This document shows positions 8,601 through 14,600 of a stretch of 64,000 bases of DNA, in pieces. Position 1 is the stretch's first letter. Each line of letters begins with the position of its first letter. The position numbers were made by a program. Location: the NCBI RefSeq assembly GCF_053078305.1, contig NZ_CP166879.1. The stretch is one strand, 5' to 3'.

Positions 8601-11600
8601 GCCTGTCAGCGCCAGCGAGGATCTCGGTGCAGGTACGCATGTTGAAGTCATTGCGATAGAAGGGATAACGCTGATCATCCGTGCGGTCATCGCCTGATGC
8701 GACGCTGACGCGTCTTATCATGACTACAAAATATGCCCGAATCGTAGGCCAGATAAGGCGCTTGCGCCGCATCCGGCAGTCGTGCACCGAAGCCTGATGC
8801 GGCGCGGGCGCGTCATATCACGCCAAAACCGTAGGCCGCCTCCGCCATGTTAAATGTTAACTGGCATTGGCAATTTACTCTTCCCGGCCTTTACTCATAC
8901 TTTTTTGGTCTTCATCCGGATAGTGTTTTTTTAGATATTCCAGGACGTTTTTATTGACCTTGTGTTGCGTATACACCCACCCTTTCCAGTAATCAGGCTG
9001 GTCCAGGTAAACTTCTGGCGGAATGGTGAAATCAGAAAGCGTTAACCATTCGGCTAACAGATCGGGGTTTCGTTTCTGGATCAACTGCAACAGCATAATC
9101 AGCGACATGGCAGAGGCAGGAGCCGTACTATCGCCGCTTAAATACTTCCATACTGTCGACCGGTTCGAACGAAAAAGGATCGGTAGCAATGCCCGGTCCA
9201 GATTCATTTCATTAAAAATCTTCTCAAATTCATTCATTTAAATTTTCCTGCCTGGCGTAAACCTCTTAAAAATTGAGATTTATCAAAGAAACGCATTTTA
9301 GCACACATCAGGAACCGCTTCACGTTTAGTCCAGAAACAGAATTTATTTCGCTTATCAAAACAAGTCTTTACTCTTTTTTACATTGAAAGAGCACGAAAT
9401 GATTTCCTTTTTTATTTATAAAAGAAACAATTTTTGTTTCTTATTGGTGGTGTTTACGCTTACATCAAACAAAAATGCGCTTTACATCACACAAATGGCG
9501 GCGTAGATTTCGATCAAATTGCAACGCAGATTAATTCTTATAACAACGTTTTATGTTGCTTATAGAAACAAATATGTGACTTACTTTGGACGAGAAAAAA
9601 TACATGAATACTGTAAAGTTGTCTTTACTGGCTGTCGTTGTTGCTACCGCAGTAAGTCCATCTGCGTTTGCGGGTGATACTGTTGAGGCGGCAGCGACAG
9701 AATTAGCGGCAATCCAGCCAGGAATGTCGCAAGTGGAAATTGATCAGAAAATTGGTCGATTTTTAGAAAGGACAGGAAATAGCGCAGCCGCACAAAATTA
9801 TCTGATTGCGCATGATTACCAGACAACGACGCCTCAGGAAAATACAACTGCTTCTCCCGTACAGCCCGCCAGTACGCTGAACCCGATAACCAATCAAGCG
9901 CAGACCGTCCGCGACAACGGGCAGGACACCGCCATTCAGGACGCGCAACATGCCGCCAACTGGGCGTCGCAAAAAGCTGATGATGCGCACCATGCCATTA
10001 TGGTGGCGCAGACGGATATTGATGCCAATAAAGCCGCCATCACCGACACCCGCAATGATGTCTCCGCAGTGCAGTCAGACGTCACCAACATAAAAGCCGA
10101 TGTCGCACATGCTCAGTCAACGGCTGACCATGCCAACGCTAACGCCAACACCGCTCTGATGAACGGCGTCAAACTTTCCGGTGCTGTGACAGAAAACAAA
10201 AACAATATCGAACAGAACCGCAGCGATATTGCTGACCAGCAGAAACGGCTGGCATCAAACGAGCACAAACAGACCGTCCGCGACAACGAGCAGGACACCG
10301 CCATTCAGGACGCACAACATGCCGCCAACTGGGCTTCACTGAAAGCTGATGACGCGCAGCACGCCATCACGGTGGCGCAGACGGATATTGATGCCAATAA
10401 AGCCGCCATCGCCGACACCCGTAATGATGTCTCCGCAGTGCAGTCAGACGTCACCAACATAAAAGCCGATGTCACACATGCCCAGTCAACGGCTGACCAT
10501 GCTAACGCTAACGCCAACACCGCTCTGATTAACGGCGTCAAACTTTCCGGTGCTGTGACAGAAAACAAAAATAATATCGAACAGAACCGCAGCGATATTG
10601 CTGACCAACAGCAACAACTCGACGAAACCCGGAAAACCGTTGCCGCCACCGGGGATGTGCAGACTGCCGCCCGATATCAGAGCATGATTGACGCCAGACA
10701 GACAGCCGCTGCCAATGCGCAACAGGAACAAGCGGACACCCAGCAGCAACAAATGGACGATCAGCAGAAACAAATCGACGCGACGCAAAAAACGGTTTCC
10801 GCACTTGGCGATGCCCAGACCAACGCACATTATCAAGAGATGGTTAACGCCGGACTGAGAGCACAAAATGATGCGAATGCGCGTACTGCAGCAGAACAAA
10901 AACAAAAAATAGATACTCTGGCGACTAACCAGGCAACGCAACAGCATATCGATAGTGTGCAGTACGGGGAACAAATTCAGCGTCTGGCGCAAGACTCAAC
11001 GCAAACGCATGAACAAATTGACAGCCTGACACAAGACGTAACCCAAACGCATCAGCAGTTAAGCAACACGCAAAAACGAGTAGCGGATAATAGCCAACAG
11101 ATTACTACGCTCAATAACCATTTCAGTTCGCTGAAAAACGAAGTTGAGGATAATCGTAAAGAAGCCAATGCGGGAACTGCATCTGCCATCGCTATCGCCT
11201 CACAACCACAGGTTAAAACCGGTGACGTGATGATGGTGTCAGCGGGAGCGGGAACCTTCAACGGTGAATCTGCGGTGTCTGTAGGAACATCTTTTAATGC
11301 CGGAACGCATACCGTGATTAAAGCCGGTGTCTCTGCGGATACACAATCTGATTTCGGCGCGGGTGTCGGCGTGGGATATTCGTTCTAATATTTCAATCCT
11401 CAATATAAATAAGAGCAAGGAAGCTTGCCGGTTTTCACCTCTTCATTAATTTGTACATTATTTAAGGTTAACAATGATGAATAGCTCCATTAAATCGTTT
11501 TCCCTGCTGGCGGTTATATTACTGGCTGGCTGTAGCTCACCCGCTTCCCGCATCGCAGATTGCCAGGCGCAGGGCGTCAGCCATGACACCTGTTATCTCG

Positions 11601-14600
11601 CAGAACAGCAGCGCCAGACGGCTATTTTAAGTGCTTCCGAAGCGCAGGCATTTAAAAATGCAGAAGCCGCACAACACGCCCAGGCGGCAAAGAAAGCCAT
11701 TTATAAAGGATTTGGCATGACCTTTAGAATGAGCAGTAAAAACTTTGCTTATCTCAATGATTCATTATGTGCAATTGATGAAGACAATAAAGATGCCACT
11801 GTTTATCAGTCAGGTCTGTATAACGTCATTGTTTATCATCACACAGGAAAAGTCGCCTTAATGAAAGAAGGCCAGTTCGTGGGTTATTTAAAATGAAGGA
11901 GCAAAGGAAAATACCCCTGACGCATATTATGATTATCGGTGCGTTTATTTTTGCCTTCTTGCAAGTAGTATTATTAGCCTCCCTGGTTCACGCTGTGAAT
12001 GTTAACAACGAAATCCAGGAAGGCTTATTTCAGTCGGGGCGCATTATGGTAGAAAGTTTGCAGCATATTCTTTCGGTGCAAACGGGGATTAACTGATTTT
12101 CACCCCGCCCGATGATGACAGCAGCCGGAGAGATTTTCGATAATCGGGCAGTCGGCGCTGTCATCACCGGGGCAGGCATTCGCCAGCGCCAGTAGCTGGT
12201 TGCGCATGGATTGCAGTTCTTCGATATGCCGTTCGATCTCCGCCACCTTCTCCAGCGTACGACGTTTGACGTCGGCACTGTGACGCTGCGGGTCGTTAAA
12301 CAGATTCACCAGCTCGCCGCTCTCTTCCAGGTTAAAGCCCACCTGGCGCGCCTGGCGCAGTAAGGTCAATTCATTGAGATGCTGCTGCGTGTAGGTTCGA
12401 TAACCATTTTCGCTGCGCATCGGCGGCGTCACCAGCCCCTTCTCTTCATAGAAGCGAATGGCTTTGCTGGTCAGGCCGGTAATTTTTGCTACATCGCTAA
12501 TGTTCATCGTTCGCGCAACGCCTCCTGTGCTTTGTTAAAGGGTTTCAACAGATAATCCAGCACGCTTTTTTTGCCGGTGCGGATATCGACCGTCGCCACC
12601 ATACCGGGGAATATCGGAAACTGCTGTTTGCTTTTGTTTTCCAGATGGTTGCTGAAAGTGCGAATGTACACCCGATAGTAATAAACATCGCGCCGCACTT
12701 CATCCTGCACGGTGTCTGGTGATATCACCGCTACTTCTCCCGGCAGACCGCCGTAGATGGAGTAATCGTAGGCAGTTATTTTCACCAGCGATTTTTGCCC
12801 CGGATGGATAAACGCCACATCGCGCGGGGAGATTTTTGCCTCAATCAGCAGTTGCTCATCCAGCGGCACGATGGTCATCAGTTTACCACCGGGGGCGATG
12901 ACGCCGCCAACCGTGGTGACGTCAATATCCTGAACAATGCCACGAACTGGCGCAGTAAAGTTGAGCCTGGTGAGGGAGTCTTCACGCCCACGGATCACCG
13001 AACGCTGGGTTTCCACTTCCGCATTGGCTTTCGCTAACTCTTCCCGCGCCTGAACGTAGTATTGCGTGCGCACGTCGCTGAGTTTGTTTTCCAGTTCATT
13101 GGCCTGGCGTTGCAGGCGCAGCACTTCGACGCTGCTCGCCGCCCCCTGTTTCACCAGCGGCTGGGTCATCGCCAGTTCACGGTTGACCAGGCTAATCCCC
13201 TGCGTCAGCCCGGTGGTGGCTTTGTTCAACCCGTCGCGGCGAGTGTTGTACAACGCCGTTTCCGACTCGATAAGTTCGGGGAATTTATTCAGTTCGTCAG
13301 GGAAGACCAACGGTTTATTGCTCACTTCCGCCCGCAGCCGCGCCGAGGTTGCCAGCGCAGCGTACAGCCGCGACATCGCTTCCTGGACGTCGGATTCCGT
13401 TTTAGTGCGGTTAAGCTGCGCCAGCGGCTGGCCCTGTTCGACAATATCGCCAACTTTCACGTTCAGATGATACAGAATTCCGCCTTCCAGCGACTGCACC
13501 ACCTGTTCGCGCCCGGAAGGTTCTACCGTGCCGCTGCCGGTGGTGACTTCATCAAGCTGGAAGTACCACGCCCAGCCGAGAAAACAGAGCAGCATCACAG
13601 CGGTAACGCGTACCGCCAGCGCCGAACGCGGCAAGCGGGGTTCAGTCAGGCCACGGTTGTATTGCAGTTGTCCGTTCATGCAGCAGACCCCTTATTCTTC
13701 TCCTGCAACACCACCCGTCGCGCCGTGGGTTCGCTCTGTTCACGCAAAATGGCCTCTTTCGCGCCATCCATCACAATCCGCCCCTGATCCATCACGATTA
13801 TCCTGTCCACCAGCTGCAGCATCGCCGTGCGGTGAGTGGCGATGACCAGCGTGCGATGTCCAATCCACTGTTTCAGATGTTCGATTAAATGCGCTTCTGC
13901 CATTTCGTCCAGCGAGGCGCTGGGTTCGTCGAGCAGCACGATATTGGGTTGAGAGATGAGTAGCCGCGCCAGCAACAGCGTTTGTCGCTGACCGCCAGAG
14001 AGGCCAAATCCTCCTTCCTGAATCATGTAGTTGAGACCGTTTTTCTGCTTCTGCACAAAGGGCAGCGCCCCGCTGAGGGTTAACGCGCGTTCGATATCTT
14101 CATCGCTGGCCTCCGGCATCCCCATGGTGAGGTTTTCCCGCAGCGAACCAAAGAACAGTCGCCCGGTCTGGCTGAGTAGCCCCATGTCTCGCCGCAGATC
14201 TGCCGGATCAAGCTGCCCGATACTGATGTTATCCAGCAACACCTGCCCCTGCTGGGCGATACGCATTCCAGCGAGCATTTGCAGTAGCGTCGATTTACCC
14301 GCGCCGTTGCGCCCGAGAATGGCGATTTTCTCACCAGCCTGAATGTTGAGTTTGCCAATCGCTACATCGGCAATCTTCTCTTCTTCGTCGTAATAAAACA
14401 CCGCGTTGCTGAACTGATAATTACCGTGCAGCACCGCTTTATGCACCAGTTTGCCGTGTTCCGGCTGATCCACCGGGCGCTTCATCAGTTCATCCAGGCC
14501 GTTACGCGCCACCTTTGCCTGCTGCCAGCGCGAGAGCACGCCGGATATCTGCGACAGCGGCGCGATGGTGCGCGAAGCCAGGATCGTCGTCCCGACCAGC

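What the first reader, a model, noticed from the sequence alone, without database searches (positions are those of the whole stretch)
8698..12099. Second accessory insertion (~3.4 kb) between ybbJ and cueR
A REP cluster, a divergent HTH-like gene, the TAA-like adhesin and a lipoprotein/small membrane protein pair occupy a position that, as I recall K-12, holds no genes. Together with the T1SS island, cueR is bracketed by two different adhesin systems, suggesting this locus is a recurrent integration or retention site for surface-adhesion cargo. No integrase, tRNA or IS was seen.
Basis: inference. Interest (0 to 1): 0.55.

Follow-up and report, generated by a model that had tools for sequence, protein, structure and literature searches.

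The report
Known E. coli islet OI-29
The 3.4-kb segment between ybbJ and cueR is the already described E. coli O-island 29, a small surface-protein gene cassette found in about a quarter of strains; its central gene, published as the transcription factor "GmrA", has the sequence architecture of an outer-membrane trimeric autotransporter.

Summary
Observation confirmed. Window 8698-12099 (3,402 bp) lies exactly between the ybbJ and cueR stop codons, which abut in K-12. It is O-island 29 (S-loop 43) of O157:H7, here with a longer adhesin allele caused by a 369-bp tandem duplication.

Content: three REP elements, a divergent XRE-fold HTH gene (z0640), a YadA-anchor trimeric autotransporter (z0639), a lipoprotein (z0638) and a translationally coupled 67-aa membrane protein. 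No integrase, tRNA, IS or flanking direct repeats.

In 5,426 complete E. coli genomes the site has four nested states:
- empty: 3,205
- cassette only: about 1,250
- cassette plus a 407-aa orphan gene: 164
- orphan gene only: about 800

Each derived junction is essentially unique (1,244 and 801 genomes). This favours one old composite islet, also present in E. whittamii and Escherichia sp. E1V33, followed by internal deletions. It does not favour recurrent integration.

The cassette is conserved across Enterobacterales. Published deletion primers show that "transcriptional activator GmrA" is the YadA-anchor protein. The islet's only HTH-fold protein is z0640.

The island is already known. The GmrA discrepancy and the conserved autotransporter-lipoprotein module are the points of residual interest.

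The parts
8669..8697 (+). Island-linked allele of the ybbJ 3' tail (encodes ...[10 protein letters not shown]-12 has ...TLHIRAVSS*)
   Evidence: 16 of 29 nt identical to K-12, while the flanks are about 97-100% identical. The same tail is present in every occupied haplotype examined: window, O157, E. whittamii, Escherichia sp. E1V33, FDAARGOS_1283 and EC958.
8692..8837 (.). REP/BIME cluster of three REP units (8692-8737, 8753-8777 inverted, 8792-8837). The first overlaps the ybbJ stop codon.
   Evidence: the repeat finder D2 and I1. Rfam RF02564 naRNA4 matches 8747-8824 at 60.4 bits, gathering score 59.5. This stretch matches several places per genome.
8875..9237 (-). z0640 orthologue: 120-aa XRE/Cro-C1-fold helix-turn-helix protein, probable local regulator
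9238..9603 (.). AT-rich (about 36% GC) divergent regulatory region, with a conserved promoter-like site at 9481-9509 (+) and five AGAAAC motifs starting at 9287, 9333, 9423, 9436 (-) and 9564
   Evidence: Composition. TTTACA-17-TAGATT site, lying in a block conserved as far as Pseudocitrobacter. AGAAAC occurs 5 times against about 0.2 expected; 0 of 2,000 shuffles reach 5. Function is inferred.
9604..11388 (+). z0639 orthologue ('GmrA', 'Saa-like protein' ECs0548): 594-aa trimeric-autotransporter-type protein. Signal peptide 9604-9672 (MNTVKLSLLAVVVATAVSPSAFA|GD), coiled-coil-like stalk, YadA anchor 11206-11385.
   Evidence: Pfam YadA_anchor E 4.8e-11, model positions 1-60 of 60. PDB sequence hits to the AtaA and Hia anchors. 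RefSeq names it a YadA family autotransporter adhesin. The gmrA deletion primer arms flank exactly this CDS. No head-domain Pfam hit.
9901..10615 (+). 369-bp tandem duplication (1.9 copies, 94% identical) inside the stalk-coding region; adds two 123-aa units that the 338-aa O157 allele lacks
   Evidence: TRF and the repeat finder D1; protein alignment A3.
11474..11896 (+). z0638 orthologue: 140-aa lipoprotein (lipobox LLAG|C20, Ser at +2), disulfide-capable helical hairpin plus C-terminal small beta-barrel
11893..12096 (+). 67-aa single-pass membrane protein, translationally coupled to the lipoprotein gene (ATGA overlap)
   Evidence: Sequence. 99% identical in O157, where RefSeq annotated it only later. 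Homologues occupy the same position in Pseudocitrobacter (47%) and P. faecalis (43%). A coupled small ORF holds the same position in Rahnella and Serratia.
12094..12102 (.). Right junction: small-ORF stop TGA, then 'ttt', then the cueR stop (TCA on the + strand). In composite haplotypes a 407-409-aa gene lies here.
   Evidence: This exact junction is present in 1,244 genomes.

Best explanation
The segment is O-island 29 (S-loop 43), a small non-mobile chromosomal islet. It consists of REP elements followed by a four-gene surface-protein cassette.

(1) A divergently transcribed XRE-fold HTH protein (z0640) probably controls the shared AT-rich promoter region. This step is inferred.

(2) The z0639 product is a short, head-less trimeric autotransporter. 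By its architecture it would be exported by Sec and would trimerise into a 12-stranded YadA-type barrel in the outer membrane. It would then display a coiled-coil stalk whose length varies between strains; here the stalk is lengthened by a 369-bp tandem duplication. The architecture is shown; localisation is inferred.

(3) A lipoprotein and a coupled 67-aa membrane protein accompany the autotransporter across genera. They are most likely accessory or partner factors for it. This step is inferred from conserved linkage.

At the population level the window carries one of four nested haplotypes at the ybbJ/cueR junction. A composite islet (cassette plus a 407-aa orphan gene) entered the ancestral tail-to-tail ybbJ/cueR junction once in Escherichia. 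Single deletions then produced the cassette-only form (this window, O157) and the orphan-only form (for example ST131). All forms, and the ancestral empty junction, have since segregated by descent and by homologous recombination through the flanking core genes.
For: Identity with OI-29:
- Same position and genes as O157:H7.
- The published primer arms map onto it.
- The literature describes a 2,643-bp island with z0638-z0640 and 'Saa-like protein, S-loop43, absent in K-12'.

Architecture:
- YadA_anchor E 4.8e-11 here and 2.6e-11 in the O157 protein.
- Sequence hits to the AtaA and Hia anchors.
- XRE fold for z0640.
- Lipobox and beta-barrel model for the lipoprotein.
- ATGA coupling of the small ORF.

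Cassette conservation:
- The same HTH(-), autotransporter, lipoprotein, small-ORF order occurs in Pseudocitrobacter, P. faecalis, Rahnella and Ewingella.
- The autotransporter-lipoprotein pair also occurs in Enterobacter, Yersinia, Pantoea and Lelliottia.

Population counts:
- Empty junction 3,205; cassette 1,416; orphan gene 966; composite junction 164.
- The union is 2,217, which equals 1,416 + 966 - 164 to within one.
- Junction uniqueness: 1,244 and 801 genomes.

History:
- The composite is present in E. whittamii, Escherichia sp. E1V33 and E. coli 32F4, and the orphan gene is 93% identical between species.
- The empty state looks ancestral: ybbJ and cueR abut or overlap by 4 nt in Serratia and Pseudocitrobacter.
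Against: - No experiment shows surface localisation or adhesion. The published OI-29 deletion did not alter adherence to HeLa or Caco-2 cells, and the only reported phenotype is reduced motility attributed to DNA binding by z0639.
- The lipoprotein has no sequence or fold similarity to the known autotransporter helper SadB, and 8 of 23 full-length homologues stand without an adjacent autotransporter.
- The order of events is not fixed by the junction sequences. The 6-nt 'TGATTT' at the window's right junction derives from neither flank of the composite, so insertion of the orphan gene into a cassette-only islet remains possible.
- The publication infers four independent gains from phylogeny.
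Confidence: 0.75

Rival explanations
1. One reading: the ybbJ-cueR junction is a hotspot where different adhesin-type cargos have integrated repeatedly and independently.
For: Three different occupied states exist. The published phylogeny places OI-29 in four clades and infers four gains. In Pseudocitrobacter, Serratia silvae and Symbiopectobacterium the related cassette lies on the other side of qmcA-ybbJ, so the neighbourhood has acquired it at two different positions. In P. faecalis it lies next to a large serine recombinase.
Against: The states are nested, not different cargos. All share one ybbJ tail allele and REP start. Each junction is shared by about 99% of its carriers. There are no integrase, tRNA, IS or target duplications. 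There is no copy in phages and essentially none on plasmids. The 407-aa gene has no adhesin features.
Confidence: 0.1
2. The published view: z0639 (GmrA) is a cytoplasmic transcriptional activator that binds the fliA promoter, so the islet is a regulatory rather than a surface-protein island.
For: PMC5826968 reports loss of motility and flagella in the gmrA and OI-29 deletions. It reports complementation by gmrA alone, but not by z0638 or z0640. It also reports an EMSA with N-terminally His-tagged protein and ChIP-qPCR at fliA, and the same phenotype in eight strains.
Against: The deletion primers delimit exactly the YadA-family CDS. The O157 protein has an N-terminal signal-peptide-like segment (MKTVNVALLALIISATSSPVVLA|GD) and a full-length YadA anchor at E 2.6e-11. 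Its only 'DNA-related' family hits are sub-threshold coiled-coil matches: SMC and Rad50 and TMF_DNA_bd at E 0.16. The paper mentions neither a signal peptide nor an autotransporter (0 occurrences). An N-terminal His tag placed before the signal peptide would keep the recombinant protein in the cytoplasm. The motility phenotype could be indirect.
Confidence: 0.12
3. The islet is ancestral to all E. coli, and the K-12-type empty junction is a secondary precise deletion.
For: K-12 demonstrably lost the neighbouring T1SS island by deletion, leaving a 98-bp hlyD remnant. The composite is present in two other Escherichia species. Internal deletions clearly occur at this locus.
Against: The empty junction reproduces the tail-to-tail ybbJ/cueR abutment or overlap seen in Serratia and Pseudocitrobacter, which an imprecise deletion would be unlikely to restore. 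No remnant of the islet is present in K-12. The empty allele is nearly invariant: 3,183 of 3,205 genomes are at least 99% identical.
Confidence: 0.15
4. The cassette is a decayed prophage moron or cargo of a mobile element, comparable to the prophage-borne Eib autotransporters.
For: The C-terminal third of the autotransporter matches PHROG adhesin and tail families (phrog_17426, 1.1e-21). The P. faecalis copy lies about 1.3 kb from a 628-aa serine recombinase beside wrbA. The GC content is atypical, down to 36%.
Against: tblastn of the lipoprotein finds nothing in 50,697 phage records. No phage genes lie in or next to the islet. The PHROG hits cover only the generic YadA anchor region.
Confidence: 0.08

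Closest known systems
O-island 29 (OI-29) of EHEC O157:H7 EDL933, also called S-loop 43 of Sakai (z0638-z0639-z0640; ECs0548)
   Same: Same chromosomal position and the same four genes in the same order. z0640 is 100% identical, z0638 99%, the small ORF 99% and the autotransporter anchor 95%. The published primers map onto it.
   Different: It is 3,402 bp here against 2,643 bp. The autotransporter is 594 aa against 338 aa because of about 256 extra stalk residues, including a 369-bp tandem duplication. Its N-terminal 72 aa are only 61% identical.
Trimeric autotransporter adhesins (type Vc): YadA, Hia, AtaA, Saa, Eib, UpaG/EhaG
   Same: Signal peptide, extended helical or coiled-coil passenger and a C-terminal YadA-type 4-strand anchor. 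Stalk length varies through repeats, as in other family members.
   Different: No recognisable head or adhesive repeat domains (no Hep_Hag, HIM or YadA_head hits). No adhesion phenotype has been reported. It comes with a dedicated XRE regulator, a lipoprotein and a small membrane protein.
SadA/SadB (Salmonella) and AtaA/TpgA (Acinetobacter): trimeric autotransporters with a co-encoded helper lipoprotein or periplasmic partner (recalled from established literature)
   Same: A lipoprotein gene is tightly linked to an autotransporter gene, and the linkage is conserved across genera.
XRE/Cro-C1 HTH regulators (Aca1/Aca2, HigA, MqsA C-terminal domain, C-proteins)
   Same: Predicted five-helix HTH core superposes at 1.4-2.3 A over 51-62 residues. 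It is divergently transcribed from the genes it would control.
   Different: No significant Pfam or NCBIfam hit. It has an extra C-terminal helical extension. The family is very small and confined to this cassette.

Membership tests
O-island 29 / S-loop 43 | Located between ybbJ and cueR and absent from K-12 | tested here: met
O-island 29 / S-loop 43 | Carries orthologues of z0638, z0639 and z0640 | tested here: met
   tblastn gives 95-100% identity to the O157 copies, except the variable passenger. The primer arms from PMC5826968 match.
Trimeric autotransporter (type Vc secretion) | C-terminal YadA-like membrane anchor (PF03895) | tested here: met
   E 4.8e-11, model positions 1-60 of 60, residues 535-594. 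Sequence hits to the AtaA and Hia anchor structures.
Trimeric autotransporter (type Vc secretion) | N-terminal Sec signal peptide | tested here: inconclusive
   By inspection only: Lys5, a 12-residue hydrophobic core and AFA|GD. No signal-peptide predictor was available.
Trimeric autotransporter (type Vc secretion) | Coiled-coil stalk | tested here: inconclusive
   Only indirect evidence: sub-threshold coiled-coil-type hits to SMC, Rad50, Alanine_zipper and Filament. The structure was not modelled.
Trimeric autotransporter (type Vc secretion) | Adhesive head domain or repeats (YadA_head, Hep_Hag, HIM) | tested here: not met
   No such Pfam hit. This is not obligatory for the family but is relevant to the label 'adhesin'.
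Trimeric autotransporter (type Vc secretion) | Trimeric, surface-exposed, mediates adhesion | not testable with these tools
   The literature reports no adherence change in the OI-29 deletion. Localisation has never been examined.
XRE/Cro-C1 HTH regulator (z0640) | Lambda-repressor-like HTH fold | tested here: met
XRE/Cro-C1 HTH regulator (z0640) | Significant match to an HTH sequence family | tested here: not met
   Pfam gives only MqsA_antitoxin at E 0.12. NCBIfam gives none.
SadB-type autotransporter helper lipoprotein | Sequence or fold similarity to SadB | tested here: not met
SadB-type autotransporter helper lipoprotein | Conserved genetic linkage to a trimeric autotransporter | tested here: met
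   A YadA-anchor ORF lies directly upstream in 12 of 23 full-length loci (L010-L032). It also does so in L007-L009 and L040, and at a distance in L006 and L026.
Classical integrase-type genomic island | tRNA target, integrase or IS, and flanking direct repeats | tested here: not met
   No tRNA, no recombinase ORF and no end-to-end direct repeat.
REP/BIME elements | Imperfect palindromic about 35-nt units repeated around the genome | tested here: met
   Three units. The Rfam naRNA4 match is above the gathering score. The stretch has several hits per genome.
Anti-phage defence system | Match to any PADLOC model | tested here: not met
   Only coiled-coil artefacts (JetC, LmuB at E about 2e-3) on the autotransporter; nothing for the other proteins.

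The most novel reading that the evidence does not exclude
The z0639/GmrA family might be a trans-envelope signalling device rather than a plain adhesin. In this reading it is an outer-membrane-anchored trimeric stalk whose state is relayed to gene expression. Two observations leave this open. First, the published fliA-promoter binding and motility phenotype. Second, the Rahnella and Ewingella orthologues carry a conserved roughly 40-aa HTH-like extension immediately before the hydrophobic N-terminal segment, which would give a ToxR-like topology fused to a YadA anchor. The lipoprotein and the 67-aa membrane protein would then be partners in that relay.
Probability: 0.05. Interest if true: 0.85.

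Novelty: already known. Interest (0 to 1): 0.35.

Why it matters
The islet itself is catalogued (Perna O-island 29; S-loop 43), so its presence in this window is ordinary. Three points could matter.

(1) A protein that now appears in reviews as a flagellar transcription activator (GmrA) has the sequence architecture of an outer-membrane trimeric autotransporter. The islet's only HTH-fold protein is a different gene. If the localisation prediction is right, the mechanism of a published virulence-regulation pathway needs re-examination.

(2) The autotransporter travels across Enterobacterales with a lipoprotein, a small membrane protein and an XRE regulator. This is a candidate dedicated accessory module for type Vc secretion.

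(3) The locus is a clean example of how nested deletion derivatives of one islet can mimic an 'integration hotspot' in pairwise comparisons with K-12.

Tried and rejected
- Target-site duplication or end repeats: none.
- tRNA: none.
- Phage origin: no tblastn hit in 50,697 phage records.
- Plasmid carriage: only two mislabelled 4.9-Mb 'plasmids' and distant homologues.
- Defence-system hypothesis: no PADLOC hits.
- Function of the 407-aa orphan: no Pfam, NCBIfam, PHROG or PADLOC hit.
- Deriving K-12's ybbJ tail from the islet's right end, as a deletion scar: no similarity.
- Microhomology at the deletion junctions: none; the 6-nt filler is unexplained.
- Literature search for any paper linking GmrA with trimeric autotransporters or YadA: none of the listed top hits mentions GmrA, and the GmrA paper itself never mentions 'autotransporter' or 'signal peptide'.
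- The Phytobacter upstream ORF (L015) as an autotransporter: YadA_anchor only at E 0.9, inconclusive.

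
Full report
**1. The observation.** ORF listing puts the ybbJ stop at 8697 and the cueR stop (minus strand) at 12100. In K-12 strain RP437 the two genes abut with no intergenic base. A 6-kb query around the site matched 5,425 of 5,426 complete E. coli genomes, but only 724 over at least 80% of its length.
- REPs at 8692-8737, 8753-8777 and 8792-8837, with an above-threshold Rfam match to the REP-derived naRNA4 family at 8747-8824.
- A divergent 120-aa gene at 8875-9237.
- A YadA-anchor protein at 9604-11388.
- A lipoprotein at 11474-11896.
- A 67-aa hydrophobic protein at 11893-12096 whose ATG overlaps the lipoprotein stop.

There is no tRNA, no integrase or IS and no direct repeat joining the two ends. 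One refinement: the last 29 nt of ybbJ also differ from K-12 (16 of 29 identical), and the ybbJ stop codon lies inside the first REP.

**2. It is a named island.** O157:H7 carries the same genes at the same place. The literature describes O-island 29 as a 2,643-bp island with z0638, z0639 and z0640 (PMC5826968). Ogura et al. list ECs0548 as a 'Saa-like protein, S-loop43, absent in K-12' (PMC2323221). The lambda-Red primer arms in Table S2 of PMC5826968 settle which gene is which. The gmrA (z0639) arms match window 11389-11426, immediately after the autotransporter stop. They also match L003 3567-3605, immediately before the ATG of the CDS that RefSeq calls 'YadA family autotransporter adhesin'. 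By the same table, read by eye against the and sequences, z0638 is the lipoprotein and z0640 the 120-aa gene.

Relative to O157, z0640, z0638 and the small ORF are 99-100% identical and the anchor 95%, while the N-terminal 72 residues are 61% identical. The window's protein is 594 aa against 338 aa. The excess includes a 369-bp tandem duplication at 9901-10615 (1.9 copies, 94% identical).

**3. What the genes are.**
- *z0639.* It has a full-length YadA_anchor match: E 4.8e-11 here and 2.6e-11 in the O157 protein. It gives sequence hits to the solved AtaA and Hia anchors. It has an N-terminal segment that reads as a Sec signal peptide, and a long helical, Q/A/T-rich passenger that draws only sub-threshold coiled-coil matches. 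No head-type domain is detected.
- *The 366-bp divergent intergenic region.* It is AT-rich (36% GC against 55-60% in the flanks). A TTTACA-17-TAGATT site at 9481-9509 lies in a block conserved as far as Pseudocitrobacter. There are five AGAAAC motifs against about 0.2 expected (0 of 2,000 shuffles). These are candidate operator half-sites, by inference.

**4. The cassette is a conserved unit.** Homologues of the lipoprotein are few (56 clusters). A scan of one genome per species found 49 loci. The full order HTH(-), autotransporter, lipoprotein, small ORF recurs in several places:
- Escherichia sp. E1V33 and E. whittamii, at the same ybbJ-cueR site.
- Pseudocitrobacter, but there between fetA and qmcA.
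- P. faecalis, near a large serine recombinase and with a second autotransporter-like gene.
- Rahnella and Ewingella.

The autotransporter-lipoprotein pair also occurs in Enterobacter, Yersinia aleksiciae, Pantoea and Lelliottia. Serratia silvae has the HTH, lipoprotein and small ORF directly upstream of qmcA-ybbJ-cueR without an autotransporter. Symbiopectobacterium has an 82%-identical z0640 homologue and a split lipoprotein gene upstream of qmcA. Eight of 23 full-length lipoprotein loci have no adjacent autotransporter. The linkage is therefore strong but not obligatory. Nothing was found in phage genomes and essentially nothing on plasmids.

**5. Population structure of the site.** The counts in 5,426 complete genomes are:
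- K-12-type empty junction: 3,205.
- Cassette, probed with the lipoprotein plus small ORF: 1,416.
- A different 407-aa orphan gene abutting cueR (first seen in FDAARGOS_1283, frameshifted in ST131 EC958): 966, of which only 271 are near full length.
- The junction 'small ORF to orphan gene', meaning both together: 164 (example strain 32F4).

The union is 2,217, which equals 1,416 + 966 - 164 to within one. Empty plus occupied gives 5,422 of 5,426.

The orphan gene of E. whittamii is 93% identical to the E. coli one and lies in a composite islet there and in Escherichia sp. E1V33. All occupied states examined share the same ybbJ tail and REP start. The window-type right junction (small-ORF stop, 'ttt', cueR stop) is found in 1,244 genomes, against about 1,252 expected cassette-only genomes. 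The REP-to-orphan junction is found in 801, against about 802 expected. Each derived state therefore has a single origin.

In Serratia and Pseudocitrobacter, ybbJ and cueR overlap tail-to-tail by 4 nt. The empty junction is therefore best read as the ancestral arrangement rather than a scar.

The junction sequences show no microhomology, and a 6-nt filler is unexplained. The order composite-first versus cassette-first rests only on the presence of the composite in three Escherichia species.

**6. Mechanism.**
- *Shown:* identity with OI-29; gene architectures; conservation of the cassette; the nested four-state polymorphism with unique junctions; the absence of mobility genes.
- *Inferred:* z0639 is exported and forms an outer-membrane trimer displaying a variable-length stalk. 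z0640 regulates the divergent promoters. The lipoprotein and the 67-aa protein act with the autotransporter. The haplotypes move between lineages by homologous recombination in the core flanks.

**7. Conflict with the literature.** PMC5826968 and later reviews present z0639 as a cytoplasmic activator binding the fliA promoter. The basis is a CDD-predicted 'DNA-binding domain', an EMSA with N-terminally His-tagged protein purified from soluble extract, ChIP-qPCR and complementation. The paper never mentions a signal peptide or an autotransporter. The DNA-related family matches I obtain are sub-threshold coiled-coil hits: SMC, Rad50 and DndD in NCBIfam and TMF_DNA_bd at E 0.16 in Pfam. I cannot test localisation. 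The genetic phenotype may be real but indirect. Complementation by z0640 did not restore motility, so z0640 is proposed here only as the local regulator of the cassette.

**8. Verdict.** The object is already known. Interest is modest. It lies in the GmrA discrepancy, the conserved autotransporter-accessory module and the unexplained HTH-like N-terminal extension of the Rahnella and Ewingella orthologues.

Noticed in passing
L001 4341-5390 and L059 3617-4666 (equivalent to window about 10339-11388): RefSeq/PGAP annotates the long autotransporter allele as a 349-aa '5'-truncated' protein without a signal peptide. The full 600-aa ORF is nevertheless open (L001 3588-5390).
   Followed up: partly
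L005 1817-3040; L012 6709-7938; L059 5466-6689 (absent from the window; would lie at about 12097-12099): A 407-409-aa orphan gene abuts cueR and has no Pfam, NCBIfam, PHROG or PADLOC match. It is present in 966 of 5,426 E. coli genomes but near full length in only 271. It is internally deleted or frameshifted in many, including ST131 EC958.
   Followed up: partly
L002 3103-3200 (K-12), corresponding to window about 12504-12600: K-12, EC958 and FDAARGOS_1283 retain a 98-bp frameshifted remnant of the hlyD-family gene next to cueR. The neighbouring T1SS and giant-adhesin island (window 12504-36619; the 6,925-aa protein is at 15842-36619) was therefore lost by deletion in those lineages.
   Followed up: partly
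L016 4734-5939, L019 4153-5925, L020 3750-5936, L030 4085-5869: The Rahnella and Ewingella orthologues of the autotransporter have a conserved roughly 40-aa extension (…RNTQIIAAYIAGNTNKxELARYFGVSASTIRRVL…) in frame before the signal-peptide-like segment. It gives only marginal HTH hits (E 0.1-0.6). It is not the classical extended signal peptide and remains unexplained.
   Followed up: partly
L008/L011 4138-6671; L024 5297-6707; L034 4770-6556: In Pseudocitrobacter, Serratia silvae and Symbiopectobacterium the cassette, or its HTH and lipoprotein part, lies immediately upstream of qmcA-ybbJ rather than downstream as in Escherichia. The Symbiopectobacterium z0640 homologue is 82% identical to the E. 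coli protein, which suggests recent exchange.
   Followed up: partly
L006 1090-9936: The P. faecalis copy of the cassette contains an extra 588-aa gene whose C-terminus matches the same PHROG (8062) as the autotransporter anchor. It lies about 1.3 kb from a 628-aa large serine recombinase, next to wrbA-yccJ-agp.
   Followed up: no
L033, L035-L053, L057, L058 (match positions 6001 to about 6200): The lipoprotein's N-terminal motif (…R-M-A-D-C-Q-A-Q-G-V-S-x-D-T-C-Y-L-A-E-Q-N-R-Q…) also occurs without the C-terminal barrel. It is found this way in Aeromonas, Pseudomonas, Buttiauxella, Atlantibacter and even alphaproteobacteria, so it is a separate, more widespread module.
   Followed up: no
window 9238-9603: AGAAAC occurs five times, including an inverted pair AGAAAC-N7-GTTTCT at 9423-9441. 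These sit in a region with blocks conserved between genera and may be an operator motif.
   Followed up: partly
PLSDB records NZ_CP134663.1 and NZ_CP141089.1: Two 4.9-Mb records in the plasmid collection are evidently E. coli chromosomes.
   Followed up: no
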